Assembly: GCA_023412005.1 (NCBI GenBank)
Contig: JAEYOE010000014.1
Span: 4,890-68,889 of the forward strand
DNA from: Bacillota bacterium
Lineage (GTDB): Bacteria; Bacillota; Clostridia; Christensenellales; SZUA-584
Reading direction: 5' to 3'
DNA: 64,000 nt
Shown here: positions 18,886 to 36,402 of the stretch, piece after piece
Position numbering within the stretch: the stretch's first letter is position 1
Layout: each line of letters starts with the position of its first letter
Notes under the pieces: model-generated
Databases searched by the model: none
The model's input: the letters and a program-made list of their open reading frames with translations, nothing else
What the model was told of the DNA's origin: nothing
Translations under genes and position numbers: made by a program

Positions 18886-19147
18886 AATGCTGAAAAAGCT
18901 CAGCGCGCTTGACTTTTATTTGATTGATCTTCATCTCTATCTGAATACGCACCCGGATGACCGGGAAGCGATTATGAAATACAACGCCATGGTGAAAGAA
19001 GCCATGATGCTTCGGCAGGATTATCAGGAGCAATACGGGATGCTGATGGCCCACAGTTCACCGAGCAAGGTTCCGTGGCAGTGGATTGACAACCCATGGC
19101 CGTGGCAGTATAAATTCAATTTTGATTTGTCGGGGGATGATAAATAA
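18872..19147 (+). CDS. cotJB: Spore coat protein CotJB
   Basis: LKKLSALDFYLIDLHLYLNTHPDD..A...YN is the CotJB signature. It overlaps cotJA, and its stop overlaps the cotJC ATG (TAATG). Confidence 0.85.
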   Translation: MTRDEMLKKLSALDFYLIDLHLYLNTHPDDREAIMKYNAMVKEAMMLRQDYQEQYGMLMAHSSPSKVPWQWIDNPWPWQYKFNFDLSGDDK

Positions 19148-19341
19148 TGTGGATGTATGATAAGAAACTTGAGTATCCGGTAAAAATAAAGAAGCCTGAC
19201 CCTAAAATGGCCAAGGTGATCCTTTCTCAATACGGCGGACCAGATGGAGAATTGGCAGCATCGCTGAGGTATTTGAGCCAGCGATTTTCTATGATCACGC
19301 CGGAAGCAAAGGCCACGCTGAACGATATCGGTAAATCGTAA
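19147..19341 (+). CDS. cotJC: cotJC (Mn-catalase-family coat protein), 5' segment, interrupted by the element after codon 62
   Basis: MWMYDKKLEYPVKIKKPDP..GGPDGELAASLRYLSQRF..ATLNDIG matches the CotJC N-terminus. It then reads KS-stop inside AT-rich foreign DNA. Confidence 0.85.
   Translation: MWMYDKKLEYPVKIKKPDPKMAKVILSQYGGPDGELAASLRYLSQRFSMITPEAKATLNDIGKS
19321..19333. repeat. attL core (AACGATATCGGTA)
   Basis: Direct repeat of 35986..35998 with one mismatch. It lies exactly at the point where homology to CotJC is lost. Confidence 0.75.
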
Positions 19342-19377
19342 ACTAAAAGGCATATGAATTACGTTATATTTAATACC

Positions 19378-22191
19378 TTATAAGCTATCATTGGTTTCTG
19401 TGCCAGATGATTGAGTAATATCATTAGCAAGTTTTTTTACAAAATAATTGTTATCGGTACGTCCATTTTGAAGAATAAATTGCCCCCTGACTGTATTGAT
19501 AAATTCAGTTTTCGATATACTTCGTAAAATTAATATTTTTGTATTGCTATTAGCGTTAATTGTAAGGTAAGATAATCTTTCTAATGCAACAGCTGCATAG
19601 CTTTCAGCCCGTAAAAGCTCAACAAGCACGACTACAGCATAAAATAAGGCGTCGGAATGATTGTTTTCACCCACCGACAAAACGAAATTTATGATAATCC
19701 CTAATATACCGTTATCAATATTAGAAACATCAGTATCAGATAAATATTCGCCAAGATATCTTAAGGCACTAATAATATCTTGTTCAGGATTTCCTGTCAT
19801 GATAGCAAACCCAATAGCTACGTCTTCAAAAGACGCGCAACCCAAAGAAATCTTGAGTAGCAAACTGTTGTATCTAAGTATTTGAGGGGTGCTTCCACCG
19901 AATGGCTCGGCAAATCGCCCGCTTGTAATAACCTCTTCATGTGTAGTTATTTTATTCGCAAAGTCTTTCCATATTTCATGTTCGGGATATGTATTGTATA
20001 AGAAAATGGCTAGTAAAAGAGCACCTTCTTTTACATCACCCTGCTGATGTTTGCTAAGTAATGTATCCTGAATCAAATTTATAATTTCTCCAACTTTTTC
20101 ATTTGTAAGTTGAATATCATTAATTTTCAATATATTTCTTATTACTTCATATGGATTGTACCCATAAGAAGTATAATAAACACCAGATTCATTTGGTACA
20201 TTTCTATGCTGTGCTTCTTGTATATATTTCTCTAAATGTTTTAAAGGATTGCTATTCATTCCAACTTCCAGATCATATTCGCCGGAAGAAAACTCTGGAT
20301 TATATTTGTCAACAGAGCTATCAAGCTCCGACATATCTATTGTCGCTGTTTTTCTAAATACAATAATAGCTTCATGAAGTTTTGAATTATTGACCAAGTT
20401 TTCCATTGTTAAAAGTGAAACTAACTGCTTCAATATCTTAGTTTGGATTTCCTCCGTTATTTTTGAATATTCAATATATCTAAGCGTTTTTAGGGCATCG
20501 TCACAAAATCTAAAGATACCATTGTTGAAAAAGTCTAGAACTAATTCTGCAATGAGATTGTTGTCAGAACGCTTGATGATTGATTGCGCAGTCTGAAGAA
20601 TATAGCTACCAGCGTTAACGATTCTTGTATTATTAGTGCACCATTTATGGGATTGTATAAAGAATAAATTCTCTTGCGTTCGATATTGTTCATCACTCAT
20701 ATAGTAACCAAGGTGCTCAAGTAGCATACAACATGATAAAAACCGTCTGTTTTTAAATGGGATCGTTTCAATACTAGCAAGAACTGTGTCAATGTTATCG
20801 GTAGTAATGGCATCAATGCTATTACGATACGTATTCACAACTTTTCTTAAAATTTTATCATCTTGCTGAAGAATGTATATACATATAAGCTTAAAGAATA
20901 GTTGAACATCTTTACAATCAGAGAATTTAGTAAAAAGCACTTCTGTATATCGATTAAGCGTCAATCGAATATGAGTGAGCGAACCAAAGCGAACTGCTAT
21001 GTTAAAATATGATGCTATGTCATCAAAAGCACCACTCATAATTCCCATGCGAAATGTATATGGGGAATCGGTCAACATTTCAAAATGCTCTTTTAATAAT
21101 TTAGATTTTTGATTTTCTACGAATCTATCTAATAATGGATAATATATCAACTCTGAACTTTGATCTAACAATTCTTGCCCTTTTGGCTTAATATTTATCA
21201 GATTTTTTGTTTGGTCTAACATCGTGCTAATGTTTCGCATATCAATAACGATATCGTTAATAAACCATTCTGGGATACGCTCTCTGCCCTTAACAAGGTC
21301 GTAAGCTCCCTGTATTTTTAATAAGCAATCATCAAGATTTCCTGAAAAAAAGTCTGCAACTGCGCCAAACCTTAATTGAAGTACATCTGAAATATCATTA
21401 ATAGCCATAGGCTCAGATAACACTTCTTTTATTAACTGTTCAAAGGTGTTGACATTGAATTTCTGACGTCCGATTACTACACCTAAGAATTCAGAACATA
21501 ACCTGTCATACAATGCTGGCTCGTCTTCTTCTTTCGGTGATGATTTTTTGTTGTAAGGGTCCATTACTCTTGCCAAAATATTATTCGGCGAATATCTCGA
21601 ATATATTTTTTTATTAAATAAAATACTTTGAGAGGGATAAAATCCATTAATATTTTCCGGCGGTGTGATATCCGGCGGTGTGATATCCGGCGGTGTGTTA
21701 TCCGGGGTATTTGAAGTATTATTATCCGAAGCTGATATCCTCTTCCTATACCAATCTAAAATATCTTGTATGGCACGTTCGTAAGCTATCTTAGGTAGTT
21801 CAGCAAATTCAGGGACAGTTCGATAAATGGTCTCGCCAGACTGTCTGAGCTCACTATGGAGTGGTATCTCATCATTGCTTCTTTCACTGCAGAAAAAATA
21901 AAGTCGATGTATGCCTGTGCTAATTGCTTGTCTGTGTTCTGTGTAGACTGCATCGGTTACTCCATCAGCATTGTCAATAAGAAAAATACAAAGGTCTGAT
22001 AAAGAAACTTCTTGAAGATAAGCCCCCTGAGTATTCTGACTGCTGGCTTCTTGCTCAAATACATATACCGAGGCTACTAGCCCAGTCTCGATCAATAGAG
22101 TTTTTAATGCATGACGTACCAGCTTATAACGATTGTCAATTCTCGAACTTATAAATACAGTAAGTTTTCTTTCTATATCCCTACCAAACAT
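19378..22191 (-). CDS. DUF4062 (TIR-like) N-terminal domain protein with a large alpha-helical repeat body
   Basis: 937 aa. The N-terminus LTVFISSRIDNRYKLVRHALKTLLIETGLVASVYVFEQE...SLSDLCIFLID fits the DUF4062 pattern. A PPDITPPDITPPE linker follows, then about 750 aa predicted helical with no P-loop seen. Confidence 0.6.
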   Translation of the reverse strand: MFGRDIERKLTVFISSRIDNRYKLVRHALKTLLIETGLVASVYVFEQEASSQNTQGAYLQEVSLSDLCIFLIDNADGVTDAVYTEHRQAISTGIHRLYFFCSERSNDEIPLHSELRQSGETIYRTVPEFAELPKIAYERAIQDILDWYRKRISASDNNTSNTPDNTPPDITPPDITPPENINGFYPSQSILFNKKIYSRYSPNNILARVMDPYNKKSSPKEEDEPALYDRLCSEFLGVVIGRQKFNVNTFEQLIKEVLSEPMAINDISDVLQLRFGAVADFFSGNLDDCLLKIQGAYDLVKGRERIPEWFINDIVIDMRNISTMLDQTKNLINIKPKGQELLDQSSELIYYPLLDRFVENQKSKLLKEHFEMLTDSPYTFRMGIMSGAFDDIASYFNIAVRFGSLTHIRLTLNRYTEVLFTKFSDCKDVQLFFKLICIYILQQDDKILRKVVNTYRNSIDAITTDNIDTVLASIETIPFKNRRFLSCCMLLEHLGYYMSDEQYRTQENLFFIQSHKWCTNNTRIVNAGSYILQTAQSIIKRSDNNLIAELVLDFFNNGIFRFCDDALKTLRYIEYSKITEEIQTKILKQLVSLLTMENLVNNSKLHEAIIVFRKTATIDMSELDSSVDKYNPEFSSGEYDLEVGMNSNPLKHLEKYIQEAQHRNVPNESGVYYTSYGYNPYEVIRNILKINDIQLTNEKVGEIINLIQDTLLSKHQQGDVKEGALLLAIFLYNTYPEHEIWKDFANKITTHEEVITSGRFAEPFGGSTPQILRYNSLLLKISLGCASFEDVAIGFAIMTGNPEQDIISALRYLGEYLSDTDVSNIDNGILGIIINFVLSVGENNHSDALFYAVVVLVELLRAESYAAVALERLSYLTINANSNTKILILRSISKTEFINTVRGQFILQNGRTDNNYFVKKLANDITQSSGTETNDSL
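21657..21705. repeat. 15-bp tandem repeat (3 units) inside the 937-aa gene
   Basis: CCGGCGGTGTGATAT occurs three times (third unit has one mismatch), followed by CCGG. It encodes the DNTPPDITPPDITPPE linker. Confidence 0.9.
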
Positions 22192-22584
22192 TGACGAAAC
22201 ATCCCTTCACTCTATACTCAAACAAAACAAAACCATATTAGTCATTATACAACATTAAACAACATTAATACCATACTATGAGATAAATTATATTTTTAAA
22301 CTTTTGAATTAGAAACAGAAGCAAAGACTTCACTGTAAATCAAAACCTTGCTAAAGTCATTCTTATTATGGAATGCCTTTTATTTGTATAGCTATCGCAA
22401 GAACTAGCGAATTTATATGCTGGGTGATATAATACTAAGCAATATGAAATGGAAGGCTTATTATGGCTGTTTCATGAAATTTATTCAATTAACGACTCTT
22501 ACAAAAAATGAGCAAATTGTGCTTGCGTAAAGTTTCTGGCCTTCGGACATAATGACTAACTTCGACTATAGGAGCCTATGATTT

Positions 22585-24927
22585 ATGATAGATAAAAAAC
22601 AGATGACCGAAGAGGATATCAAGCTCCAATTCATTACTCCGGCAATCACCGCCAAATGGAACTTAGATTATATTACGATGGAAACGAAAATCACGGATGG
22701 AAAAATCAATCTCAAGGGTAATTTTATAATTCGTGAAAAACCGAAAAAGGCTGATTACGTTCTTTATATAAATTCGAACAATCCGATTGCCATCGTCGAA
22801 GCCAAGGATAATAAGCATTCGGTATCTTATGGCTTACAGCAGGCTATAACTTATGCTCAAATGCTCGATGTACCCTTTGCATATAGCTCCAATGGTGATG
22901 CGTTTTATGAGCATGACTTTCTCACCGGGCAGGAGCGGCAAATAGAATTTTCCGATTTCCCATCACCAGATGAACTGATTAACCGTTATCAGGCTGGAAA
23001 AGGGTTGAATGAGAACGAAAAGAAAATCATCGAACAACCCTATTATACAAGCCAGACCACATACGCACCGCGATATTATCAGCGGAATGCAGTTAACCGT
23101 ACTTTAGATGCTATAGCCAAGGGTCAACAGCGTCTCCTTCTTGTTATGGCAACTGGGACAGGCAAGACATACACTGCGTTTCAGATTGTCTATCGTCTGC
23201 TGAAAAGCGGCATGAAAAGAAAGGTGCTATATTTAGCTGACCGCAACATCCTTGTTGACCAGTCAATTCAGCAGGATTTTGCTCCACTTAAAAAGACGAT
23301 ACATAAAATCAATTTTGCTAAGGACGATCCAGTAACAATTACATCACATGAGGTCTATTTCTCGCTATATCAGCAGCTAACCGACCGTGAGGATGAAGAG
23401 AATGATGAATGCGAAGACGAAACCGTTAGCCGTCTTTCCAAGCTATTTCAGAAGGACTTCTTTGATCTCATCATCGTGGACGAGTGCCATCGCGGTTCTG
23501 CAAAGAAGGACAGTAATTGGCGCAAGATACTCGATTATTTCTCCGCGGCAACACAAATTGGCATGACCGCCACGCCGAAAGAAACAAAATATATTTCCAA
23601 CATTGATTATTTTGGTGATCCGATTTACACCTATAGCCTTCGTGAAGGCATTGATGACGGTTTCCTTGCTCCTTTCAAAGTGATAAACATCCGTACCAAC
23701 ATAGGAGAAGGCTGGCGTCCTTATAAAGGGCAACTTGATAAGAACGGTAAAGAAATTGAAGATCGTATCTACACAAACAGCGATTTTGATTACAATATCA
23801 TCCTCGAAGACCGCACGTATGAGGTTGCCAAGGAAATCACAGAATACTTAAAAATCACGGACAGAATGCAAAAAACGATTGTGTTCTGTGCAACCGAGGA
23901 TCACGCAGAGCGTATGCGAATCGCGCTGGTCAACTTAAACTCCGATATGGTTCAGAAGAACCCAGATTATGTGGTTCGCATAACAGGCAGCGATGCGTAT
24001 GGTAAGAGCAAGCTCGATTATTTCATCTCCGTTTCTGCACCGTACCCTGTTATTGCAACAACCTCGAAACTTCTTTCAACCGGTGCGGACTGCAAGATGA
24101 CCAAGCTCATTGTTCTAGACCAAATGATTGGTTCTATGACGGAATTCAAGCAGGTTATCGGCAGAGGTACTCGGCTCCGTGAAAAAGAAGGCAAAACGCA
24201 CTTTATTGTTATGGATTTCCGCAATGTGACGCGCCTGTTTGCTGACCCTGACTGGGACGGCCCAATTGAACAGGATGATAATTACGGCAGCGGTGGAAAT
24301 AGACCCGCTGGCCCCGGGCCTGTAACACCTCCCGGCCCTGGCACTGATCCGAAAGAAAAGCCAATCGTTGATGAACATGGCTGCACAGTTAAGGTGATCG
24401 GTAAGACCGTTTCAATTTATGATGCCAACGGCAAGCTGCTCCGTCAAGAAAGCATTGTGGATTATACCAAGTCCAACATCCTCGGCACATACGCTTCTCT
24501 TGATAATTTCATCCAACAATGGTCTGCAGAAGAAAAGAAAGAAAGCATCAAGGATTTGCTCTTGGAGCGCGGTATCGATTTAGAAGGCATGAAAACTGAC
24601 CAGAACATGTCCGATGTGGACGATTTTGATTTCATTTGCCATGTTGCGTTTAACCAGAAACCTTTAACGCGGTGTGAACGAGCTAACAATGTTAAAAAGC
24701 GAGATTTCTTAAGCAAGTACAACGGGGTAGCTCGTGATGTTCTTGAAGCACTTCTGGATAAGTACATGAACACTGGCATCTATGAGATTGAGAAAACAGA
24801 GATTTTGAAGCTTGACCCACTACAGAAATTCGGCAAGCCATCAAAGATTGCGCAGTTTTTCGGTGGTAAAGAAGGATATCTGCAAGCGATCAAAGAATTA
24901 GAAGAAGAACTTTATAAGGTGGGTTGA
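22585..24927 (+). CDS. hsdR: Type I restriction enzyme R subunit
   Basis: 780 aa. Nuclease-like N-terminal domain (ADYVLY...IVEAKD), helicase motifs MATGTGKT and DECH, and an EcoEI-type C-terminal region. Confidence 0.9.
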   Translation: MIDKKQMTEEDIKLQFITPAITAKWNLDYITMETKITDGKINLKGNFIIREKPKKADYVLYINSNNPIAIVEAKDNKHSVSYGLQQAITYAQMLDVPFAYSSNGDAFYEHDFLTGQERQIEFSDFPSPDELINRYQAGKGLNENEKKIIEQPYYTSQTTYAPRYYQRNAVNRTLDAIAKGQQRLLLVMATGTGKTYTAFQIVYRLLKSGMKRKVLYLADRNILVDQSIQQDFAPLKKTIHKINFAKDDPVTITSHEVYFSLYQQLTDREDEENDECEDETVSRLSKLFQKDFFDLIIVDECHRGSAKKDSNWRKILDYFSAATQIGMTATPKETKYISNIDYFGDPIYTYSLREGIDDGFLAPFKVINIRTNIGEGWRPYKGQLDKNGKEIEDRIYTNSDFDYNIILEDRTYEVAKEITEYLKITDRMQKTIVFCATEDHAERMRIALVNLNSDMVQKNPDYVVRITGSDAYGKSKLDYFISVSAPYPVIATTSKLLSTGADCKMTKLIVLDQMIGSMTEFKQVIGRGTRLREKEGKTHFIVMDFRNVTRLFADPDWDGPIEQDDNYGSGGNRPAGPGPVTPPGPGTDPKEKPIVDEHGCTVKVIGKTVSIYDANGKLLRQESIVDYTKSNILGTYASLDNFIQQWSAEEKKESIKDLLLERGIDLEGMKTDQNMSDVDDFDFICHVAFNQKPLTRCERANNVKKRDFLSKYNGVARDVLEALLDKYMNTGIYEIEKTEILKLDPLQKFGKPSKIAQFFGGKEGYLQAIKELEEELYKVG

Positions 24928-24929
24928 AA

Positions 24930-27895: not shown

Positions 27896-27950
27896 GTGCA
27901 AGCCCAGTTGTGAATAAGAAAAAGCTAAATAAAAACGAACCTTTTTCATG

Positions 27951-27979: not shown

Positions 27980-27985
27980 TTAGAC

Positions 27986-28723: not shown

Positions 28724-28734
28724 GCATAAAAAAT

Positions 28735-28771
28735 GGCCACTCTTCAAGCACTGGAAGGGTGGTCTTTTTTC
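28735..28771 (+). terminator. Rho-independent terminator after the HTH gene
   Basis: GGCCACTCTTC / GGAAGGGTGGTC stem (9 of 11 pairs) followed by TTTTTT. Confidence 0.55.
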
Positions 28772-28868
28772 TGCGCTGCTTCTCCCAAGAAGCCAACACA
28801 AAAATAATATCTGTTACTGTAAATGCAAGTGATGCGCATACCTTAAAAAATTATTAAAGGAGATTAAC

Positions 28869-29231: not shown

Positions 29232-29309
29232 TGAGGGGTTGTACGGAATGGAGGGGGAGGACAACCCCCTCCAGCTGTATAGGTCAGAACAAGAAAGGAA
29301 GTCCTTGAG

Positions 29310-30518
29310 ATGAAAAGCGAAAAAGATTCTATGCTTGCACATATGGGGGAATATGTGAGAACGCATTGGAAATGGCTGTTTTTTATTATCTATATAATAG
29401 CAGCAATTTTGGGCTGGAATATGAAGCTTGAAATACTAAGTTTCTTGCATATTGATAATATTCCTTTTCTACATCCGATATATAAAATCATCATCAGTGC
29501 TATATACTTACTGCTGGGCACATGTCTCCTTATATGCATTTTGAAGTGGGTTAGAGAACCAGTATTTTTGCAATTATGGTATAAAAGAGGATTTGAGAAC
29601 ATTGGATTTAAAAACAGTCAAGGCATGGTTCCGATTCTCAAGTCAAGGCGCAAAGACAAACGTAAAACGCACGGTCTCATTTACGAGTTTGATAATGTTG
29701 GACTTTCTGTAGACGATTTTGAAAATAGCACTGATAGAATTCAAACGGTTTTAAATGGAACGGTTTATCGTATCGCATATTCTAAAAAGAGAATGAGCAG
29801 AACCTTTTTATATGTATTGCCTAAAAAGTATGCTTTACCAACAGTTATTTCACTTAACAGTATATCCATGTGTTCGGAGCCGAATCTATTATGCGTAGGA
29901 AAAACCGGAGCAGGGAAAAGCTACGCGCTTGCCACCATGATGGGGATTTTTGCATTACATATCCCTGAAGTAAGTATCACAATTTGCGATTATAAAAAGA
30001 GTTCATTTGCTCAATTTGAGGATACACCAAATTTCTTTGGTTATCAGGATGTGCCAGATGGAGTACGGGGATTCTATAAAGAATTCCAAGAGCGTCTTGC
30101 GGCAAATGATTCTGACCGTAATAAGAAGGTGAGGGTTCTTCTTATTGATGAGTACGGTGCATTAATAGCCGCACAGGACAAGAAACTTGCAGATGAACTA
30201 AAGATGATGATAGCCAATATGCTCTTTATGGGACGTAGCCTCGGTATAAAGGTTTTGATTGGTGTGCAACGGGCAGATAGCGAGCACTTTCGCGCTGGTG
30301 CACGAGATCAGTTTAGGTCAATCCTTGCACTTGGCAATCTCTCAAAAGAACAAAAGCTGATGCTATTTGCGGATGATAGAGATAGTATGACGGAAATTAA
30401 CGACATCGGTGAGGGCTATCTTTTTATTGATGGAAAGGGTCTGGAAAGAGTAAAGATTTCCCCAATCAGAGATTCCGAGTTTCTCAACGAGAGTATAAGA
30501 AAAGCTATGTACCATTAG
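29310..30518 (+). CDS. FtsK/SpoIIIE-family (TcpA/Orf21-like) DNA translocase / coupling protein
   Basis: N-terminal TM helices, Walker A GKTGAGKSYAL and Walker B VLLIDEYGAL. Confidence 0.8.
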   Translation: MKSEKDSMLAHMGEYVRTHWKWLFFIIYIIAAILGWNMKLEILSFLHIDNIPFLHPIYKIIISAIYLLLGTCLLICILKWVREPVFLQLWYKRGFENIGFKNSQGMVPILKSRRKDKRKTHGLIYEFDNVGLSVDDFENSTDRIQTVLNGTVYRIAYSKKRMSRTFLYVLPKKYALPTVISLNSISMCSEPNLLCVGKTGAGKSYALATMMGIFALHIPEVSITICDYKKSSFAQFEDTPNFFGYQDVPDGVRGFYKEFQERLAANDSDRNKKVRVLLIDEYGALIAAQDKKLADELKMMIANMLFMGRSLGIKVLIGVQRADSEHFRAGARDQFRSILALGNLSKEQKLMLFADDRDSMTEINDIGEGYLFIDGKGLERVKISPIRDSEFLNESIRKAMYH

Positions 30519-30641
30519 AGACAAGGACGGGCGGGCGGCTTATGCGTAGCAAGAAGTCGCTCGTTTGTCCATGCCGCCGAAGGCGGCAATTTAACTTGTT
30601 TCTTATGATACAATATCACGTTCTTAAAAAGAGGTGAAAAA

Positions 30642-31565
30642 ATGAGAATCGAAAGGTTGTCAGACAACATTAAACCGTCGCCAGATAGCACTGTAACAGT
30701 TAAAAAAATGGGACATATCACCGAGGTTCGTTATATGCAAGTCACTACTGGTGGTACTATCCATAAGCTTGATAAAGATAGCTATGTTGATTTAAGTACT
30801 GGTGAGGTCAAAGACTTTAAGCATAGAAAGAATCGATTAGGAAACATCGAAAGTGTCTCACGTTCCCTTCGTAATTTGCGGGATATCATAAATGCTAATA
30901 CCATTGATCAAGAAAATTGTTTATGGGTCACACTTACGTATGCGGAAAATATGCAAGACGAAAAACGGCTCTATGATGATTATCGTAAGTTCAATATGAA
31001 ATTTCAGAGATACTTAAAGAATGAAGGTATATTTAAGTGTGAATATATAGCCGCTGCGGAACCGCAAGGTAGAGGCGCATGGCATTTGCATATACTATTT
31101 ATCTATCCTGAAAAAGCACCGTTTATAAAGAATGCAACATTATCAGAGTTATGGGGTCACGGCTTTGTAAGCATATCGTCACTAATGGGCATCGATAATA
31201 TTGGTGTCTACCTATCCGCATATCTAAGCGATATGGATGTTATTAAAGCTTTGAATACAGTCGATTTTGATTGTAAGAAAGTCAAGATAGTAAATTCAGA
31301 TAGTGAAAATGACAGACGGCGTAAAAAAGCAATCATTAAAGGCGCTAGGATGAGGCTTTATCCAACGGGCTTTAGAATTTACCGACTTAGTAGAGGGATT
31401 AAGAAGCCGGTAATTTCCAAGATGACCGAGGCCGAGGCTATGCAGGAAGTAGAAGACGCAGCTCTTACATTCGAAAAAACAATACGGATAAAAAACAACG
31501 AAGATAAGACTATAAATCAAATCAATTACAGACATTTCAATAGCAGAGCTAATGAAGAGAGATAA
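30642..31565 (+). CDS. HUH rolling-circle replication initiator / relaxase
   Basis: RCR motif 1 LWVTLTY, motif 2 (HUH) GAWHLHILFIY, and a Tyr motif GVYLSAYLSD. 307 aa. Confidence 0.65.
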   Translation: MRIERLSDNIKPSPDSTVTVKKMGHITEVRYMQVTTGGTIHKLDKDSYVDLSTGEVKDFKHRKNRLGNIESVSRSLRNLRDIINANTIDQENCLWVTLTYAENMQDEKRLYDDYRKFNMKFQRYLKNEGIFKCEYIAAAEPQGRGAWHLHILFIYPEKAPFIKNATLSELWGHGFVSISSLMGIDNIGVYLSAYLSDMDVIKALNTVDFDCKKVKIVNSDSENDRRRKKAIIKGARMRLYPTGFRIYRLSRGIKKPVISKMTEAEAMQEVEDAALTFEKTIRIKNNEDKTINQINYRHFNSRANEER

Positions 31566-31664
31566 CTTAATGTCAATATGCTAAGTGCCCAGTCTTGGAC
31601 TGAACACAAGCAGTCAAGTGAACATATTTTATAATAAAGATTTCTTGAAAGGGGGACGGTGCCA

Positions 31665-31841
31665 ATGAAGGCTGAGAATTCGGAAACCCTAAATAGCATC
31701 AATGATTCAATCGCATTGACGCCGGAACAATCGGATAAGTTGCAAGCTGCTGTTAAGATTGGCCTATGTAAAGAGCTACATCGAAAAGGCTTGCTGACAG
31801 ATATGCAACTAAACTATTTAATTTTAGAACAAAACGAATAA
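31665..31841 (+). CDS. Small helical protein immediately upstream of the recombinase (candidate RDF / excision cofactor)
   Basis: 58 aa from the ATG at 31665, with AAAGGGGGA as SD. No recognised family. The functional call rests on position only. Confidence 0.35.
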   Translation: MKAENSETLNSINDSIALTPEQSDKLQAAVKIGLCKELHRKGLLTDMQLNYLILEQNE

Positions 31842-31914
31842 TGTTTTGTTGCCCATCTCCGCCGTTTTTGATAGAATAAAAGCAGCGGATTTTTTATTAT
31901 TGAGGATGAATTAA

Positions 31915-33525
31915 ATGAGTGATAAATTGAAAGTTGCGGCCTATTGCCGAGTATCAACAGATAAAGATGACCAAGCAAATTCACTGGCAAGCCAAATTGA
32001 TTATTTCACCAAATACATCAGCAATAACAATGAATGGGAAATGGTTGAGGTTTATTACGATGAAGGTATAACCGGGACTTCAACAAAAAAGCGCACAGGA
32101 TTCAATAGAATGATTGCTGATGCTTTGAACGCCAGAATTGATTTAATATTAACGAAAGAGATCAGCCGATTTGCCCGTAATACCCTTGATAGTATCAGTT
32201 ATACAAGGGAGTTAAAAGAAAAGGGTATAGGGGTTGTATTCATCAATGATAATATCAATACCCTTGACAATGACAGCGAATTGCGGCTTACGATCATGTC
32301 AAGTATTGCTCAAGAAGAGAGCAGAAAGACATCTGAGCGCGTCAAATGGGGGCAGAAGCGTCGAATGGAGCAAGGCGTTGTATTCGGCAGGGATATGTTG
32401 GGGTATTTCGTCAAGGACGGTAAATTAATAGTTAATCCAGATGAGGTCGAGGCTGTTAAGCTAATATTCCATAAGTATCTTAATGAGGGGAAAGGCACGT
32501 GGACAATAGCAAGAGAATTGTATAACTCAGGAATCAAGCCGAAACGTGTTAAAGAGTGGTCAAATACCATGATACTGAAAGTGCTGCGTAACGAAAAATA
32601 TGTTGGTGACTTGCTTCAAAAGAAAACCTTTACGCCGAATTATTTGAGCCATTCAAAGAAATATAACAACGGGCATGAGGATAAAGTATATATCCGTGAT
32701 CATCACGAGCCTATCATTGATCGCAAGACTTGGGATACAGTTCAAAAAGAGCTTGATAGGCGTTCTCCCTCTAATGAGCAAAAATCAAAACATTCTAACC
32801 GCTATTGGTGCAGCGGTAAATTAATATGCGGCGAATGTGGACAAAGGTTTGTTAGTAAAACGAAAAAGCTATCTGATGATTCGGTTTATAAAGCGTGGAG
32901 ATGTTATGCTGCCGCTAATCACGGAACAGCAAAAGTCGATGATTTGGGGAATCATGTAGGATGTGATAGCAGTTCCATAAATGACAAGGTTCTTCTTTAT
33001 TGTGTTTGCTATGTTCTTAAGCATATTCAAATCAATAAGGACAAAATCATTAAAGACCTTATGCAAAGCATAAAGTCAGTACAGTCCATAAATACGATTG
33101 TTGATACTGCTAAATTGTATGAACAGATTAGCCAAATAAACAAAAAGAAAGCCAAAGCCTATGATCTTGTTATTGAAGGACTTATGAGCAAAGAAGACTT
33201 AAAATTGCAGATAGAGGAATACGATAGCCAGATTAGAGGAATCACTTCTCAAATATCTGAAGCGGAAAACGAGAACGGCATTCGCCAAATGCAGCTTGAG
33301 GGTATAAACCAATATATAGTTGAGATAAAGAGAATCCTTAACTTCGACACCGAAAATGAGCTGTTGTATAGGGAACTTGTTGATAAAATAAAAGTCTACA
33401 ATAGGAATACGGTTGAGGTGCATATGAAATGCCTTCCCTTTGTTGTTAAATTGATATATTCATCAAAGGGAAGAATGGAGAAGTTTACAGTGAGGATTGA
33501 AAAAATTGAGATATTGGAGAATTGA
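31915..33525 (+). CDS. Large serine recombinase (SpoIVCA/TnpX/TndX class)
   Basis: Resolvase catalytic domain AAYCRVSTDKDDQ...SLASQ, then a recombinase domain and a zinc ribbon CGECGQRF...WRC, then a coiled-coil tail. 536 aa. Confidence 0.9.
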   Translation: MSDKLKVAAYCRVSTDKDDQANSLASQIDYFTKYISNNNEWEMVEVYYDEGITGTSTKKRTGFNRMIADALNARIDLILTKEISRFARNTLDSISYTRELKEKGIGVVFINDNINTLDNDSELRLTIMSSIAQEESRKTSERVKWGQKRRMEQGVVFGRDMLGYFVKDGKLIVNPDEVEAVKLIFHKYLNEGKGTWTIARELYNSGIKPKRVKEWSNTMILKVLRNEKYVGDLLQKKTFTPNYLSHSKKYNNGHEDKVYIRDHHEPIIDRKTWDTVQKELDRRSPSNEQKSKHSNRYWCSGKLICGECGQRFVSKTKKLSDDSVYKAWRCYAAANHGTAKVDDLGNHVGCDSSSINDKVLLYCVCYVLKHIQINKDKIIKDLMQSIKSVQSINTIVDTAKLYEQISQINKKKAKAYDLVIEGLMSKEDLKLQIEEYDSQIRGITSQISEAENENGIRQMQLEGINQYIVEIKRILNFDTENELLYRELVDKIKVYNRNTVEVHMKCLPFVVKLIYSSKGRMEKFTVRIEKIEILEN

Positions 33526-33736
33526 GTTGCTACTATTGTTCGCGCTATAATATGCTAATATATGATGATTTTCGTGCCAAAAAGATTTCTCTTCTGCATA
33601 GATTGGAGTTGGCATACGGCTTATCTATCGGCATGACAGAAAGCGCCTATGTGGCGGAACTTATGAAGTTGTCTCAAGAAAAAATAGCAGGGTTGAAATA
33701 AGAAGGCTCCATTTCTTGATGTTATTATTACACAAA

Positions 33737-34468
33737 TTATGTAGTGGAACGTCTACGTTTTAGCTCTGCTGGCAACTCATATAAATATTTCAATAGTTCT
33801 CTCATAAAACTGTGCAATTGTTTTGCATCATCATTAGTGACAGGATTAATAGGATCATAATGAGCCCCATCATTACCAATTAAACGCACTTCTTTTGCCC
33901 ATTCAGATAGATTTGGTTGCAGTATACCTTTATCTGATAGAGCTTTTAATCTATCAACAAGATGTCCTTTTGTTTCACCGAGATTTTCCGTAATTGCTTC
34001 GAGTGTTCGCCTTAGCATAACCGTAGATGCCCGAGGACAGTTAGCGAGTAACGTTGTTGATGCTTCACTAAATGCATCACGTATACATTCGGGGATATCC
34101 TTTGATAAATTACTATCAGGTAATGGCCACCAGTGTATTCCCCTGAAGGTAATAGAACCACCTGTCCATTTTAAACGAGAAGGTGTTTCGCCAATATATT
34201 CCTCTTCAATAACTACTGTAGCCTGATTGCAGTTTCGGCATAATAAAGAAGACACTCTATCGCTATAGGTCTTTTCACCGGTTGTTGCAACTACACCTTC
34301 GCTATAAGTTACCGGTAAGCTTCCGATTATATCAAAACTTGATTGTTTATTGCATCGTGGGCACAAGCCATTTGGTCTATATGAATCAGGAAGTCCGTCA
34401 TTTTTTAAAGGAAGTGGTTCGTTTCTTTTGCCCTTATTCGTTGGACTCTTTGCAAAAATATTAAACAT
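33737..34468 (-). CDS. Zn-ribbon plus DUF4145 domain protein
   Basis: CPRCN...CRNCN ribbon, then DAFSEA...MLRRTLEAI...IRLIGNDGAHYD typical of DUF4145. Start moved to the ATG at 34468, which has AAGGAGAAG upstream. Confidence 0.65.
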   Translation of the reverse strand: MFNIFAKSPTNKGKRNEPLPLKNDGLPDSYRPNGLCPRCNKQSSFDIIGSLPVTYSEGVVATTGEKTYSDRVSSLLCRNCNQATVVIEEEYIGETPSRLKWTGGSITFRGIHWWPLPDSNLSKDIPECIRDAFSEASTTLLANCPRASTVMLRRTLEAITENLGETKGHLVDRLKALSDKGILQPNLSEWAKEVRLIGNDGAHYDPINPVTNDDAKQLHSFMRELLKYLYELPAELKRRRSTT

Positions 34469-34594
34469 TGTTCTTCTCCTTAAATTGTATATAATCATAC
34501 TATAGTTACCTGTATATTTCAACATAATATACCAATTAATAAGATAAGAATATAAACAGTAACAGAAAATGCATTGTATTTTTATTTTGTTTTG

Positions 34595-34623
34595 TTGAAA
34601 GAAAAACTAACGCGTGGTATATT
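34595..34623 (+). promoter_or_regulatory. Sigma-A promoter for the peptide / MUG-like / DUF2971 operon
   Basis: TTGAAA, 17 nt, TATATT with a TGn extended -10. Confidence 0.45.
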
Positions 34624-34683
34624 ATAGAAATAATATAAGTGGTTTTGATTCAATATTATTATAAATAAAAGGCAGGTCATCTG

Positions 34684-34755
34684 ATGTTATTTATAATAGC
34701 AATTATATGTATAATTATAGGTTTGTCGGGCACTAAAGGAAGATATAGAAGATAA
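34684..34755 (+). CDS. Candidate 23-aa hydrophobic peptide (MLFIIAIICIIIGLSGTKGRYRR)
   Basis: AAGGCAGG lies 7 nt upstream. The stop overlaps the next gene's ATG (TAATG). It could be a chance ORF in AT-rich DNA. Confidence 0.3.
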   Translation: MLFIIAIICIIIGLSGTKGRYRR

Positions 34756-35267
34756 TGAATAACGAATGTAAATATGTTCTTGAAGATACTTTGGAATACG
34801 GACAGAGATTAGTTATTTGCGGTACGGCTGCGGGGGATACTTCAGCAGCGAAAGAATACTATTATGCTGGCTCCGGTAATAAATTCTGGGCAATACTTCA
34901 CAAAACTAAACTTACTGCCCAACAACTACACCCTAATGAATATAAAATTCTTAAAGACTATTCAATTGGCTTAACAGACATTGTTAAAGACCAACATGGT
35001 AATGATAGCAAGATAAATTTTAACAATTCACAATCCAATGAACTTCGAAGGAAAATTATTTTATTCAAGCCGAAAGTATTATGCTTCAACGGAAAAGAAG
35101 CTGCAAAAAGATTTTTTAATAAAAAAGCAGTAGACTATGGTGTATGTAAAGAAATAATTGGTGACACCATATTGTACATTGCTCCATCAACCAGCGGTTT
35201 GGCAGCCAAATGGTGGGATGAATCCTTTTGGCATGAATTATCAGGAATCGTTGGAGATGGAAAATGA
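34755..35267 (+). CDS. Uracil-DNA glycosylase superfamily protein, MUG/TDG-like, with the catalytic Asn replaced
   Basis: RLVICGTAAGDTSA aligns with E. coli Mug RVVFCGINPGLSSA. Further matches: AGSGNKFW with HPANRFW, IGLTDIV with GVTKLV, and YIAPSTSGLA with LPNPSGLS. Confidence 0.7.
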   Translation: MNNECKYVLEDTLEYGQRLVICGTAAGDTSAAKEYYYAGSGNKFWAILHKTKLTAQQLHPNEYKILKDYSIGLTDIVKDQHGNDSKINFNNSQSNELRRKIILFKPKVLCFNGKEAAKRFFNKKAVDYGVCKEIIGDTILYIAPSTSGLAAKWWDESFWHELSGIVGDGK

Positions 35268-35974
35268 GCTTATATAAGTATTCCGCTATTACAAAACATA
35301 CTAAAGAAAACTTAATGAATAACCTAATATATTTTCAATCCCCAAGTTTTTTTAATGATCCATACGAATTCATTTTTAAGTTCGAAGTTGCTGATCAAAT
35401 CTACATTAAGTTTCTAAAGCTTGTTTACGGTGATCAATATAAGTTTTTTTTAGAAAAAGGCATGTCAAAAAGTGAAGTGCTGGAGCATACTCGAGATCAT
35501 TATTTTGGTCAAATGTGTAAGTTGCTTGGGGCGGTCTGTTTATCAGAAGACGATAATAATGACCTAATGTGGGCGCATTATGGCGGTAATCATCATGGAA
35601 TCTGTATTGAATTTGATGCAGAAATTACTCCATTTCACCTATGTCAAAAAGTTCATTATATAAACGATGTTTTTTGTCTGTCGATAAATACTGTCTCCAA
35701 TCTTCAAGAACAATTAGAAATAGAAATAGGGGCAGCCTTTCTTCGAAAAAGTAAAATATGGAGCTATGAAAAAGAATGGAGAATATTATCTGAAGCTTAT
35801 TCAATTGAACCATATCCTGCCAAGGCGATTAAATCAATAACCTTTGGATTTTTCTGTGAGAAGGAAAGCAAGCAAGAAATTATTAATCTAACTTCGCACT
35901 TGAACATCAAGTATTATGAAATAGTTCGTTCAAAAGATCATTATCTAACAAAGAAGATAGAATATAATAAATAA
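35264..35974 (+). CDS. DUF2971 family protein
   Basis: LYKYSAI...NLIYFQSPSFFNDPYEF and MWAHYGGNHHGICIEFD fit DUF2971. ATGA overlap with the MUG-like gene. Confidence 0.7.
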   Translation: MSLYKYSAITKHTKENLMNNLIYFQSPSFFNDPYEFIFKFEVADQIYIKFLKLVYGDQYKFFLEKGMSKSEVLEHTRDHYFGQMCKLLGAVCLSEDDNNDLMWAHYGGNHHGICIEFDAEITPFHLCQKVHYINDVFCLSINTVSNLQEQLEIEIGAAFLRKSKIWSYEKEWRILSEAYSIEPYPAKAIKSITFGFFCEKESKQEIINLTSHLNIKYYEIVRSKDHYLTKKIEYNK

Positions 35975-35985
35975 GCAATTAAGAT

Positions 35986-35998
35986 AACGATATAGGTA
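35986..35998. repeat. attR core (AACGATATAGGTA)
   Basis: Direct repeat of 19321..19333. CotJC homology resumes in frame here. Confidence 0.75.
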
Positions 35999-36402
35999 CG
36001 GAAGAGCTTGCTCATCTTGAGATGATCGGGACGATGGTGAAGCAGCTAACGCAAAACGCAACAGTAAAAGAAATTGAAGCAGCGGGTATGTCCGCATATT
36101 ACACCGATCATGACAAGGCCATCTATCCGGCTAACGCGGCAGGGGTGCCGTTCACAGCGGCCTATCTCCAGTCGAAGGGAGACCCGATAACGGACCTCAC
36201 AGAGGATATGGCAGCGGAACAAAAAGCACGCTCCACATATGAATATCTGTTGAATCAGGCGGATGATCCGGACGTAATCGGCCCACTAAGATTTCTGCGA
36301 GAGAGGGAGGTTGTTCATTTCCAGCGTTTCGGCGAAGCGCTGCGGATTGTTCAGGAGTATCTGGAGAACAGAAAGAAATTCAGCATGGGTAAAATGGTGT
36401 AG
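35997..36402 (+). CDS. cotJC: cotJC, 3' segment (codons 63-196 of the reconstituted gene)
   Basis: The in-frame reading (DIG)TEELAHLEMIGTMVKQL...AAEQKARSTYEYLL...LRFLREREVVHFQRFGEAL is colinear with the CotJC C-terminal two thirds. There is no SD or start of its own at the junction. Confidence 0.85.

What the first reader, a model, noticed from the sequence alone, without database searches (positions are those of the whole stretch)
19147..36402. cotJC is split by a 16.7-kb recombinase-bearing insertion: a skin-like intervening element in a mother-cell coat gene
Seen in sequence:
- After intact cotJA and cotJB, an ORF encodes 62 residues matching the CotJC / Mn-catalase N-terminus (..GELAASLRYLSQRF..ATLNDIG). 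It then reads KS-stop in AT-rich DNA.
- The same frame resumes at 35997 (TEELAHLEMIGTMVKQL ... FLREREVVHFQRFGEAL) and ends at 36402 in front of a clean terminator.
- Joining 19147..19331 to 35997..36402 gives a 196-codon ORF colinear with B. subtilis CotJC. The break falls inside the DIGTEExxHxEM metal-ligand helix.
- The 16,665 bp in between is visibly much more AT-rich than both flanks and encodes a 536-aa large serine recombinase.

Established knowledge: sigK (skin element) and spsM (SPbeta) are rebuilt by serine-recombinase excision only in the terminally differentiating mother cell.

Inference: the same strategy operates on cotJC, a mother-cell coat gene. Here the intervening DNA is an IME-like element packed with defence-type cargo rather than a prophage remnant.
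Basis: partly seen in the sequence, partly recalled or inferred. Interest (0 to 1): 0.85.

Follow-up and report, generated by a model that had tools for sequence, protein, structure and literature searches.

The report
Mobile element splitting spore-coat gene cotJC
A 16.7-kb mobile element carrying anti-phage genes sits exactly inside the spore-coat gene cotJC of an uncultured gut Clostridium; it belongs to a large, undescribed family of elements that always land at this same codon and look wired to cut themselves out during sporulation, although splitting of cotJC by such elements has been mentioned in passing before.

Summary
cotJC is cut after the GG of its Gly62 codon (window 19330-19331). 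It resumes at 35997, and the joined 196-codon ORF is a full Mn-catalase/CotJC. A strain about 1% diverged carries exactly this uninterrupted gene, including the predicted empty site.

The 16,665-bp insert is a non-phage integrative element. It holds a large serine recombinase (LSR), an FtsK-like translocase, a rolling-circle Rep, a type I restriction-modification system and two further defence-type genes.

New here: LSRs 50-92% identical sit beside a cotJC fragment in 73 of 79 informative loci from many Clostridia, broken at this codon wherever I read the junction. attP is a palindrome centred on GG.

Every element keeps a 52-60-aa gene (orfX) directly upstream of the LSR. orfX usually has a CATAnnnT -10 box, as sigmaE/sigmaK promoters do, like the cotJ promoter itself. 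The LSR has a sigmaA-type promoter embedded in a covarying terminator hairpin.

This fits skin-like, mother-cell excision with orfX as the directionality factor, but nothing shows when excision happens. The elements also transfer horizontally, and cotJC has a paralog, so plain "safe-harbour" insertion remains a real rival.

cotJC interruption was already noted by Abe 2013 and Galperin 2022. I rate this a new member of a known kind.

The parts
18596..18604 (+). Candidate cotJ operon promoter, -10 box CATACGATA, with ACAC 14 nt upstream
   Evidence: Sequence read. It matches the CATAnnnTA form of sigmaK/sigmaE -10 boxes (consensus from my own knowledge). Not tested experimentally.
18628..18885 (+). 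cotJA
   Evidence: Pfam CotJA PF11007, E=4.4e-13.
18872..19147 (+). cotJB
   Evidence: Pfam CotJB PF12652, E=1.2e-27.
19147..19331 (+). cotJC 5' segment (codons 1-61 plus the GG of the Gly62 codon). As it stands the ORF runs on to a stop at 19341.
   Evidence: Identical to the 5' part of the intact allele in L002/L004.
19321..19333 (+). attL core AACGATATCGGTA; crossover dinucleotide GG at 19330-19331
   Evidence: In relative L018, attL and attR share only GG at the junction, which fixes the crossover.
19332..35996 (+). Integrated element, 16,665 bp: a non-phage, IME-like island
   Evidence: Absent from conspecific contigs L002/L004, whose alignment to the window jumps from 19333 to 35986. GC is 0.383. 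PHROGs finds no phage structural genes.
19378..22191 (-). 937-aa cargo protein of unknown function (weak DUF4062 N-terminus; TPPDI repeat region)
   Evidence: No PADLOC, NCBIfam or PHROGs hit. Repeat-length difference from L001.
22585..27895 (+). Complete type I restriction-modification system: hsdR 22585-24927, hsdM 24924-26405, hsdS 26402-27895
   Evidence: Pfam. PADLOC REase_I 1.7e-288, MTase_I 2.8e-174, Specificity_I 3.5e-141.
28358..28723 (+). Small HTH regulator (Cro/C1-like)
   Evidence: Weak Pfam HTH hits; PHROGs transcriptional regulator.
29310..30518 (+). FtsK/SpoIIIE-like DNA translocase with a hydrophobic (probably membrane-spanning) N-terminal stretch; probable transfer or coupling protein
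   Evidence: Pfam FtsK_SpoIIIE 2.5e-6; phrog_1358 6.3e-18.
30642..31565 (+). Rolling-circle replication initiator / relaxase-type Rep
   Evidence: Pfam REP_ORF2-G2P 2.4e-20; phrog_3419 1.6e-17.
31602..31631 (+). Candidate orfX promoter: GAACAC ... CATATTTTA, with the -10 box 42 nt upstream of the orfX start
   Evidence: CATAnnnT lies 25-50 nt upstream of orfX in 41 of 63 distinct homologous loci, against 12 of 545 other ORF starts. It resembles the cotJ promoter of the same window.
31665..31841 (+). orfX, 58 aa: conserved partner of the LSR and candidate recombination directionality factor
   Evidence: Found directly upstream of the LSR in 83 of 91 family loci; 6 of the 8 misses lack upstream sequence. 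No Pfam, PHROGs or NCBIfam family.
31845..31900 (+). Terminator-like hairpin with a T-run that embeds a sigmaA-type promoter for the LSR (TTGCCC-17-TAGAAT with a TG extension, 31849-31877)
   Evidence: In the family alignment 7 of 8 stem pairs show compensatory changes, and TTGC and TGnTAnnAT are conserved.
31915..33525 (+). Large serine recombinase, 536 aa, intact
   Evidence: Pfam Resolvase 5e-35, Recombinase 7.2e-25, Zn_ribbon_recom 7.1e-7. Catalytic R12/S14 invariant. Closest solved relative is 3g13, a conjugative-transposon recombinase N-terminal domain, 5e-48.
33737..34525 (-). DUF4145 protein, PD-T7-4-like defence candidate
   Evidence: Pfam DUF4145 2.1e-18; PADLOC PD-T7-4 1.8e-12.
34755..35267 (+). 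Mug-like (G/U mismatch) DNA glycosylase
   Evidence: Pfam UDG 2.3e-16; NCBIfam PRK10201 1.2e-25, below the curated cut-off.
35264..35974 (+). DUF2971 protein, PDC-S31 defence candidate
   Evidence: Pfam DUF2971 4.1e-9; PADLOC PDC-S31 9.1e-44.
35986..35998 (+). attR core AACGATATAGGTA; GG at 35995-35996
35997..36402 (+). cotJC 3' segment (third base of the Gly62 codon, then codons 63-196 and the stop)
36420..36443 (+). Intrinsic terminator-like hairpin with a T-run after cotJC
38728..39411 (-). Second Mn-catalase homolog (about 35% identical to CotJC in relatives); possible functional back-up

Best explanation
Shown:
- A site-specific integrative element is inserted at the GG of the Gly62 codon of cotJC, inside the DIG|TEELAHLEM metal-site motif.
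- It belongs to a large family whose members are 4.9-16.7 kb long where both ends could be read. The family is defined by a conserved orfX-LSR module and a palindromic attP, GCAAT-N3-GATAACGATATA-GG-TATATCGTTATC-N3-ATTGC.
- The family targets this codon across Clostridia.
- Recombination between attL and attR at GG removes the element exactly and rebuilds a 196-aa CotJC. Natural strains with the empty site exist.
- Cargo varies between elements. In this window it is a type I restriction-modification system, two defence-candidate genes, a glycosylase and a 937-aa unknown protein.
- An FtsK-like translocase and a rolling-circle Rep suggest transfer as a mobilisable (IME-type) element.

Inferred:
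- The LSR is made constitutively from a sigmaA-type promoter hidden in the loop of the terminator that ends the orfX transcript.
- orfX is the recombination directionality factor. It is transcribed from a CATAnnnT (sigmaE/sigmaK-type) promoter like that of the cotJ operon.
- Excision would therefore be triggered in the mother cell, where cotJC is needed. The forespore chromosome would keep the element.
- The same module may also serve excision for horizontal transfer.
For: Structure:
- Split and join.
- Empty site in a conspecific strain with only synonymous differences.
- LSR homologs (50-92% identity) lie next to a cotJC fragment in 73 of 79 informative loci; every junction I read is broken at this codon.
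- All 7 complete elements give an intact 196-201-aa CotJC (or all of it that the 5' piece supplies) after excision in silico.
- LSRs at or below 49% identity in viral contigs are never next to cotJC.
- In L018, attL and attR share only GG.

Regulation:
- orfX is present in 83 of 91 loci.
- CATA lies 20-60 nt upstream in 49 of 63 loci, against 11.5 in shuffles. There is a peak at 36-37 nt, and T at position +7 in 41 of 49.
- CATAnnnT is present in 41 of 63 loci, against 2.2% of other ORF starts.
- The window's orfX promoter (ACAC-N15-CATATTTTA) resembles its cotJ promoter (ACAC-N14-CATACGATA).
- In L009 the orfX start overlaps the stop of the truncated cotJC, so the cotJ promoter would drive it.
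- In L007, L008 and L010 orfX and the LSR are translationally coupled behind a CATATAAT box.
- The terminator hairpin covaries and encloses TTGC-17-TGnTAnnAT.

Precedent:
- In C. difficile skin, the LSR is constitutive and a 72-aa directionality factor is under sigmaE (PMC5025042).
- GirX is a 42-aa directionality factor in the non-phage gin element (PMC5595907).
- C. difficile cotJ-like operons are sigmaK-dependent (PMC3789822).
Against: - There are no expression or excision data of any kind, and the organism is uncultured.
- CATAnnnT contains the generic TAnnnT -10 core. The -35 regions are heterogeneous, and I could not separate sigmaE from sigmaK or exclude another sigma factor.
- orfX has no detectable similarity to any known directionality factor, and I could not model its interaction with the LSR.
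- The family is clearly mobile. Identical or near-identical LSRs occur in hosts whose CotJB and CotJC differ by 43-52%, and closely related hosts carry LSRs 24-33% apart. Intact cotJC halves can therefore be explained by recent insertion.
- A Mn-catalase paralog lies 2.3 kb downstream. Catalase-coat mutants are mild in C. difficile (quoted in PMC11222575), so loss of cotJC may simply be tolerated.
- Some clostridial transposon LSRs (TnpX, TndX) excise without a directionality factor (my own knowledge).
Confidence: 0.55

Rival explanations
1. Safe-harbour insertion only. The LSR family uses a highly conserved stretch of a gene that is dispensable for growth as a landing pad. cotJC stays broken in carriers. 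Excision happens only for horizontal transfer, on cues unrelated to sporulation. Coat catalase function is lost or covered by the paralog.
For: - Strong signs of recent horizontal transfer.
- Transfer-type genes (FtsK-like, Rep; MobV-like in L034) and accessory defence cargo.
- The orfX-LSR module is 89% identical between species whose flanks are 72-77% identical.
- Paralog at 38728-39411.
- Carrier and non-carrier strains coexist.
- Mild phenotypes of coat-catalase mutants.
Against: - The conserved CATAnnnT box upstream of orfX resembles the cotJ promoter.
- In L009 orfX sits directly behind the cotJC 5' fragment.
- At least three unrelated LSR lineages all chose this mother-cell gene, which is the pattern of proven sporulation intervening elements.
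- No decayed cotJC half was seen in any complete locus.
Confidence: 0.28
2. Excision without a directionality factor, at a low constant rate (TnpX/TndX-like). The LSR alone excises and integrates, and orfX is a regulator or has another role. Some mother cells regain cotJC by chance, without developmental control.
For: - The LSR's catalytic domain is closest to a clostridial conjugative-transposon recombinase (3g13, 5e-48) and matches TnpX.
- The LSR has its own sigmaA-type promoter.
Against: - orfX is conserved next to the LSR in essentially all members and is separately transcribed or translationally coupled.
- This is hard to explain unless orfX acts in recombination.
- The terminator insulation implies the two genes need different control.
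Confidence: 0.12
3. Dead pseudogene or assembly artefact. The split is a fixed, decaying lesion or a chimeric contig.
For: None beyond the fact that the data are metagenome assemblies.
Against: - The same junctions appear in at least three independent assemblies (L001, L003, L104).
- Homologous junctions appear in more than 70 loci.
- The LSR, orfX and both att sites are intact.
- The cotJC halves carry only synonymous differences from the intact allele.
Confidence: 0.02

Closest known systems
skin element of C. difficile (sigK; LSR CD1231 with directionality factor CD1234) and of B. subtilis (SpoIVCA)
   Same: - An LSR-borne element sits inside a mother-cell sporulation gene, and precise excision rebuilds the ORF.
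- The proposed control logic is the same as skinCd: a constitutive LSR and a tiny unannotated directionality factor under a mother-cell sigma factor (PMC5025042).
- Only the recombinase is shared between elements, as Galperin 2022 noted for skin.
   Different: - The target is cotJC, a structural coat gene and not a regulator.
- The element is not prophage-like; it carries FtsK-like and Rep transfer genes and defence cargo.
- The family is evidently still mobile.
- Excision timing and directionality-factor function are untested here.
gin element in gerE of B. cereus (GirC/GirX)
   Same: - A non-viral intervening element with an LSR and a 42-aa directionality factor that has no known motif.
- The authors argue that any mobile element with a developmentally regulated recombination unit can play this role (PMC5595907).
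   Different: - Different target and a different LSR lineage.
- gin has three recombinases; here there is one LSR.
- In gin both genes are sporulation-induced. Here most members appear to have a sigmaA promoter for the LSR.
SPbeta in spsM (SprA/SprB)
   Same: - An active mobile element that uses one LSR both for its own life cycle and for sporulation-specific gene reconstitution.
- The directionality factor carries the developmental control (PMC4191935; PMC5595907 discussion).
   Different: SPbeta is a functional phage. This element has no phage genes.
Previously noted cotJC interruptions (Abe et al. 2013 list; Laceyella sacchari FBKL4.010, Galperin et al. 2022)
   Same: - The same gene is split.
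- In L. sacchari the pieces are 2604060..2604290 and 2612416..2612766, about 8.1 kb apart. The 3' ORF length is compatible with a break near the same motif.
   Different: - Those are one-line in-silico mentions in Bacilli.
- I found no description of the recombinase family, att sites, orfX or regulation.
- I could not fetch the Laceyella locus to test whether its LSR belongs to this family.
Integrative mobilisable elements and conjugative transposons of Firmicutes with serine recombinases (Tn4451 TnpX, Tn5397 TndX, streptococcal IMEs)
   Same: - An LSR with an FtsK/TcpA-like protein and a Rep/relaxase-like protein, and no type IV secretion genes.
- The closest solved domain is a conjugative-transposon recombinase.
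   Different: - Strict single-codon target in a sporulation gene.
- An obligatory small partner gene.
- Several family members have no transfer genes at all (L029, L067).
Heterocyst excision elements of Anabaena (fdxN element, XisF)
   Same: - Developmental excision by an LSR in a terminally differentiated cell.
- The window LSR matches the NCBIfam XisF model at 2e-31, far below its cut-off.
   Different: Different phylum, target and cell type. The similarity is only at the level of the general LSR family.

Membership tests
CotJC / Mn-catalase spore coat protein | Full-length match to the Mn_catalase profile, including the ExxH metal motif | tested here: met
   The joined ORF matches PF05067 at 4.4e-58 over residues 1-182. 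It aligns colinearly with 6j42/4r42/1jku, with TEELAHLEM aligned to IEEFSHLEM.
CotJC / Mn-catalase spore coat protein | Third gene of a cotJA-cotJB-cotJC operon | tested here: met
   CotJA and CotJB Pfam hits lie directly upstream, with overlapping starts and stops.
CotJC / Mn-catalase spore coat protein | Expressed in the mother cell and deposited in the spore coat | not testable with these tools
   Inferred from B. subtilis (my own knowledge) and C. difficile (sigmaK-dependent; PMC3789822). A CATACGATA box lies upstream of cotJA.
Large serine recombinase | Resolvase catalytic domain with the nucleophile Ser, plus Recombinase and Zn-ribbon domains and a long C-terminal region | tested here: met
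   (three domains). R12 and S14 are invariant in 24 sequences. Length is 536 aa.
Large serine recombinase | Short att sites with dyad symmetry around a 2-bp crossover | tested here: met
   The reconstructed attP is palindromic around GG in 7 complete elements. In L018 only GG is shared between attL and attR.
Sporulation gene-intervening (skin-like) element | Inserted inside the coding sequence of a mother-cell sporulation gene | tested here: met
   The mother-cell status of cotJC is by homology.
Sporulation gene-intervening (skin-like) element | Carries its own site-specific recombinase, and precise excision restores the ORF | tested here: met
   In-silico excision and a natural empty site.
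Sporulation gene-intervening (skin-like) element | Excision occurs during sporulation, only in the mother cell | not testable with these tools
   Only promoter-motif evidence is available.
Sporulation gene-intervening (skin-like) element | Recombinase or directionality factor under a sporulation sigma factor | tested here: inconclusive
   A CATAnnnT box lies upstream of orfX in 41 of 63 loci, against 2.2% background. In L009 orfX sits behind the cotJ operon. No expression data.
Integrative mobilisable element (IME) | An integrase plus partial transfer functions (coupling or translocase protein, relaxase/Rep), with no conjugation pore | tested here: met
   FtsK-like and Rep hits. None of the other ORFs of at least 100 aa searched has a type IV secretion match. 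Actual transfer was not tested.
Prophage or prophage remnant | Capsid, terminase, portal, tail or lysis genes | tested here: not met
   PHROGs hits are only Rep, an FtsK-like protein, a DNA-binding protein and a regulator. Only 2 of 80 IMG/VR loci fall in the family, and both are short fragments next to cotJC.

The most novel reading that the evidence does not exclude
cotJC is a dedicated landing pad for developmental DNA rearrangement across Clostridia.
- At least three unrelated LSR lineages each target a different conserved motif of this 200-codon gene, at about codons 31, 62 and 134.
- One gene can therefore be split into three pieces and would need two or three separate rearrangements in the mother cell.
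- In one lineage (L019/L020) this includes an inversion rather than an excision.
- The codon-62 family carries a new, universally linked directionality factor (orfX) under a mother-cell sigma factor, together with a promoter-inside-terminator device that separates its control from that of the recombinase.
- Anti-phage islands would thus ride in the germ line at no cost to the spore.
Probability: 0.35. Interest if true: 0.72.

Novelty: new member of a known kind. Interest (0 to 1): 0.55.

Why it matters
- If excision is developmental, this adds a structural coat gene and a very widespread, still-mobile element family to the short list of proven sporulation rearrangements: sigK, spsM, spoVFB, spoVR, gerE and yabG. 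The family is found in gut and bioreactor Clostridia.
- It would show how defence islands can occupy a gene without cost to the host, because the gene is restored only in the disposable mother cell.
- The orfX-LSR pair, with its 2-bp GG crossover and compact palindromic attP, is a ready-made candidate integrase and directionality-factor pair for genome engineering in Clostridia.
- For annotation, cotJC "pseudogenes" of 62-64 codons next to a recombinase in Clostridia should not be scored as gene loss.

Tried and rejected
- **Literature.** Searches for cotJC with "intervening", "recombinase", "serine recombinase" or "integrase" found only two passing mentions and no characterisation. Abe 2013 itself is not held. 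Supplements of Abe 2014 hold no cotJ entry.
- **orfX identity.** No hit in Pfam, PHROGs or NCBIfam. The word-indexed protein search returned only 5 close relatives. I did not run AlphaFold: a 58-aa protein predicted as a single chain would not test binding to the LSR, and no multimer option exists.
- **orfX-LSR fusion as interaction evidence.** Rejected. In L007, L008 and L010 the two ORFs overlap by 8 nt in different frames, so this is translational coupling and not a fusion.
- **attP (excised circle).** No match in IMG/VR. No internal att-like site in the window.
- **Co-occurrence of intact and split forms in one sample.** The look-ups returned different samples for each form. I cannot tell strain mixture from excision without reads.
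- **Purifying selection on the split gene.** There are 5 synonymous and 0 non-synonymous differences from the intact allele. The changes cannot be assigned to a branch, and horizontal transfer makes "recent insertion" an adequate explanation, so I do not count this as evidence.
- **Co-divergence of LSR and host.** Only moderate (Mantel r=0.45), with clear exceptions. Ancient vertical domestication is rejected.
- **orfX charge as a directionality-factor hallmark.** Uninformative: pI is 4.97 in the window, while the family core has a median of 9.35.
- **Short contigs L005/L006.** I considered their ends, about 90 nt inside the element, as signs of an assembly branch at the junction. With k=141 the last k-mer still spans the junction, so they say nothing about excision.

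Full report
**1. The observation**

The window carries cotJA (18628-18885) and cotJB (18872-19147). A 64-codon ORF (19147-19341) follows. Its first 62 residues are the CotJC N-terminus, and it then reads KS-stop.

The same frame resumes at 35997 with TEELAHLEMIGT... and ends at 36402. A hairpin plus T-run follows at 36420-36443.

Joining 19147-19331 to 35997-36402 gives 591 nt, a 196-aa ORF. It matches Pfam Mn_catalase at 4.4e-58 over residues 1-182. It aligns colinearly with solved Mn catalases, with the break three codons before the ExxH motif.

The intervening 16,665 bp has GC 0.383, against 0.475 and 0.491 in the flanks. Both junctions carry AACGATAT[C/A]GGTA. Zero-mismatch copies of this 13-mer occur nowhere else in the window.

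**2. A natural empty site**

An exact-sequence look-up of CotJB returned contigs of the same species in both states.
- L001 and L003 are 99.99-100% identical to the window and carry the split.
- L002 and L004 are about 1% diverged in the flanks and carry an uninterrupted 591-bp cotJC.
- That gene encodes the identical protein, with five synonymous and no non-synonymous differences.

The element is a strain-level polymorphism, not a fixed lesion.

**3. What the insert is**

Reading left to right:
- a 937-aa protein of unknown function on the minus strand;
- a complete type I restriction-modification system (hsdR, hsdM, hsdS);
- a small HTH protein and a 120-aa ORF;
- an FtsK/SpoIIIE-like protein with a hydrophobic N-terminal stretch;
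- a rolling-circle Rep;
- a 58-aa ORF that I call orfX;
- the 536-aa LSR;
- a DUF4145 protein (PD-T7-4-like) on the minus strand;
- a Mug-like glycosylase;
- a DUF2971 protein (PADLOC PDC-S31).

PHROGs finds no virion or lysis genes. The LSR's catalytic domain is closest to a clostridial conjugative-transposon recombinase (PDB 3g13, 5e-48). The best annotated phage relatives are about 37% identical; two unannotated 4-6-kb human-faecal "Bacteriophage sp." fragments reach 44-47%. "IME-like island with defence cargo" is a fair description.

**4. A dedicated recombinase family**

The LSR has hundreds of relatives at 50% identity or more in Oscillospiraceae, Lachnospiraceae, Ruminococcus, Caproicibacter and unnamed Clostridia. 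I fetched 90 family loci.
- 64 have a cotJC fragment directly beside the LSR.
- 9 more have a cotJC fragment elsewhere in the locus.
- 11 are too short to tell, and 6 show none.
- That is 73 of 79 informative loci.

Every junction read by eye breaks cotJC after the GG of the Gly codon in (N/T)DIG|TEE.

Reconstructed attP sites are palindromes, GCAAT-N3-GATAACGATATA-GG-TATATCGTTATC-N3-ATTGC. In L018, attL and attR share only GG, which pins the crossover dinucleotide.

In all seven complete elements (4.9-16.7 kb), excision in silico yields an intact CotJC of 196-201 aa. Where a second insertion has removed codons 1-30, it yields the corresponding part.

In IMG/VR only two contigs fall in the family, and both are next to cotJC fragments. 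The 78 phage LSRs at or below 49% identity are not.

The LSR gene lies at the attL end in antisense (48 loci), at the attR end in sense (15 loci, including the window), or directly behind cotJC-5' (L009). GG is always on the cotJC sense strand.

**5. The elements are mobile**

LSR distance and host distance (CotJB plus the CotJC N-terminus) correlate only moderately (Mantel r=0.45).
- Identical or 6-7% diverged LSRs occur in hosts 43-52% apart.
- Hosts 3-5% apart carry LSRs 24-33% apart.
- The window's orfX-LSR module is 89% identical at nucleotide level to that of L016, whose flanks are 72-77% identical and whose cargo is different.
- Only orfX and the LSR are shared by all elements. Some have Rep plus FtsK, one has a MobV-like gene, and some have no transfer genes.

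Consequence: the intactness of the cotJC halves cannot be taken as proof of selection for reconstitution.

**6. Regulatory anatomy (new, in silico only)**

(a) orfX (52-60 aa; core motif ..F..AIKIGIYKELHKRGLLTD.QLN.LL) lies directly upstream of the LSR in 83 of 91 loci. Six of the eight misses lack upstream sequence. It has no family assignment. Known directionality factors of sporulation elements are similarly tiny orphans: CD1234 is 72 aa and GirX is 42 aa.

(b) Between orfX and the LSR most members have a hairpin plus T-run.
- Its stem covaries: 7 of 8 pairs show compensatory changes.
- It encloses an invariant TTGC and a TGnTAnnAT box 17 nt apart.
- In the window this is TTGCCC-17-TAGAAT at 31849-31877.
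- I read it as a terminator for the orfX transcript with a sigmaA-type LSR promoter inside. Transcripts that start in the loop cannot form the hairpin. This reading is an inference.
- In L007, L008 and L010 the two genes instead overlap by 8 nt.

(c) Upstream of orfX, 49 of 63 distinct sequences have CATA 20-60 nt before the start codon.
- Shuffles give a mean of 11.5 and a maximum of 22.
- There is a sharp peak at 36-37 nt, and T at position +7 in 41 of 49.
- CATAnnnT occurs 25-50 nt upstream in 41 of 63 loci. For other ORF starts in the same loci it is 12 of 545, and several of those 12 are mis-called orfX promoters.
- CATAnnnT(A) is the -10 signature of the mother-cell sigma factors sigmaE and sigmaK. 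This consensus is from my own knowledge (Helmann and Moran; Eichenberger et al.); the C. difficile logos are figure-only in PMC3789822.

(d) Internal control. The window's cotJ promoter region (ACAC-N14-CATACGATA) looks like its orfX promoter (ACAC-N15-CATATTTTA). The loci whose orfX lacks CATA (L061, L063, L069, L070, L077, L078) have GAATATATTGTAA. The cotJ upstream regions read for L061 and L063 have GAATATTATGTTA, with a looser match in L070.

(e) In L009 the orfX start codon overlaps the stop of the truncated cotJC. The cotJ promoter itself would therefore transcribe orfX and the LSR.

Together this reproduces the C. difficile skin logic: a constitutive LSR and a directionality factor under mother-cell control.

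**7. What remains unproven**

- No datum here shows when excision occurs.
- CATAnnnT contains the generic TAnnnT core, and the -35 regions are heterogeneous.
- orfX could be a regulator rather than a directionality factor.
- A second Mn catalase lies 2.3 kb downstream (38728-39411), and coat-catalase mutants are mild. A pure safe-harbour model is therefore viable.

My estimates:
- about 0.55 for developmental excision with orfX as the directionality factor;
- about 0.28 for safe harbour only;
- about 0.12 for excision at a low constant rate without a directionality factor;
- about 0.02 for artefact or pseudogene.

**8. Comparison with the literature**

Proven cases are skin/sigK, SPbeta/spsM, vfbin/spoVFB, vrin/spoVR, gin/gerE and yin/yabG.

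cotJC has been named as a target. [quoted passage not shown] I found no description of the recombinase family, att sites, partner gene or regulation, and no experiment.

The finding is therefore a new member of a known kind. The family-level picture in points 4, 6 and 9 is, to my knowledge, undescribed.

**9. Seen on the way**

- cotJC is often occupied more than once. Twenty loci carry a second element at codons 30-31 (GG|PDGE), with an LSR only 23-29% identical nearby in most of them.
- L019 has a third site at codons 133-136 with a DUF4368-type LSR.
- In L019 and L020, two independent assemblies, cotJA-cotJB-cotJC-5' is inverted relative to orfX-LSR-cotJC-middle. Joining across GG still gives a continuous ORF, so an inversion rather than an excision would rebuild that junction.

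**10. Verdict**

Structure and mechanism of recombination are solid. Developmental timing is plausible, with new indirect support, but unproven.
- Novelty: new member of a known kind.
- Interest: 0.55.

Noticed in passing
L010, L027, L038, L040-L042, L048, L052, L055, L056, L064, L070, L076, L077, L083, L084, L088, L098, L106, L107 (e.g. L010 2594-2695 and 11320-11412): A second element is inserted in the same cotJC gene at codons 30-31 (GG|PDGE). A different LSR, 23-29% identical to the window's, lies nearby in 12 of the 20 loci, about 570 bp upstream in six of them. Only a 96-bp middle piece of cotJC is left between the two elements. This is seen in 20 of the family loci.
   Followed up: partly
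L019 11950-12040 and 19150-19240; second LSR at 17601-19154: A third insertion site in cotJC lies at codons 133-136 (core GCAGCAG, in the DMAAEQKAR motif). It is occupied by a DUF4368-type LSR element that carries an alpha-amylase and a hybrid sensor kinase. cotJC is in three pieces here.
   Followed up: partly
L019 and L020, 8728-12006: cotJA-cotJB-cotJC-5' lies inverted immediately upstream of orfX-LSR-cotJC-middle, so attL and attR are in inverted orientation. Joining across GG gives a continuous ORF. An LSR-mediated inversion, not an excision, would rebuild this junction. The arrangement is seen in two independent assemblies.
   Followed up: partly
window 31845-31900, and the homologous intergenic regions of about 24 loci (alignment A2): A sigmaA-type promoter (TTGC-17-TGnTAnnAT) sits inside the loop and 5' arm of a covarying terminator hairpin. 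In many members a second small hairpin follows that holds the ribosome-binding site of the LSR. This is a compact device that separates transcription of orfX from that of the LSR.
   Followed up: partly
L007 8303-8480, L008 2523-2700, L010 764-940: In the Ruminococcus elements orfX and the LSR overlap by 8 nt (ATGTCATTAA) instead of being separated by the terminator. Both genes would then be driven by the CATATAAT-type promoter upstream of orfX.
   Followed up: yes
window 21656-21705 versus L001 12834-12845: The 937-aa cargo protein has a TPPDI tandem-repeat tract whose length differs between otherwise identical strains. Products of 937, 947 and 957 aa were called in different assemblies.
   Followed up: no
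window 31619-33512 versus L016 9703-11598: The orfX-LSR module is 89% identical at nucleotide level between two species whose chromosomal flanks are 72-77% identical. The rest of the two elements is unrelated (L016 carries a PIN-TPR-GreABC protein and LRR proteins). This suggests the recombination unit is exchanged between elements.
   Followed up: partly
window 38728-39411 (-): A second Mn-catalase homolog (227 aa) lies close to the cotJ operon. Its C-terminal region reads FFAKPRRSAQLFREAF where CotJC has FLREREVVHFQRF, so the last His ligand may be missing.
   Followed up: no
window 8963-9075 and 59655-59756: An FMN riboswitch (103 bits) lies upstream of the ECF riboflavin transporter gene, and a purine riboswitch (53 bits) lies further on. 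Both are ordinary.
   Followed up: no
window 21246-21259: The palindrome AACGATATCGTT, one mismatch from the att core, lies inside the 937-aa gene. It is probably chance, and no flanking arm similarity was seen.
   Followed up: no
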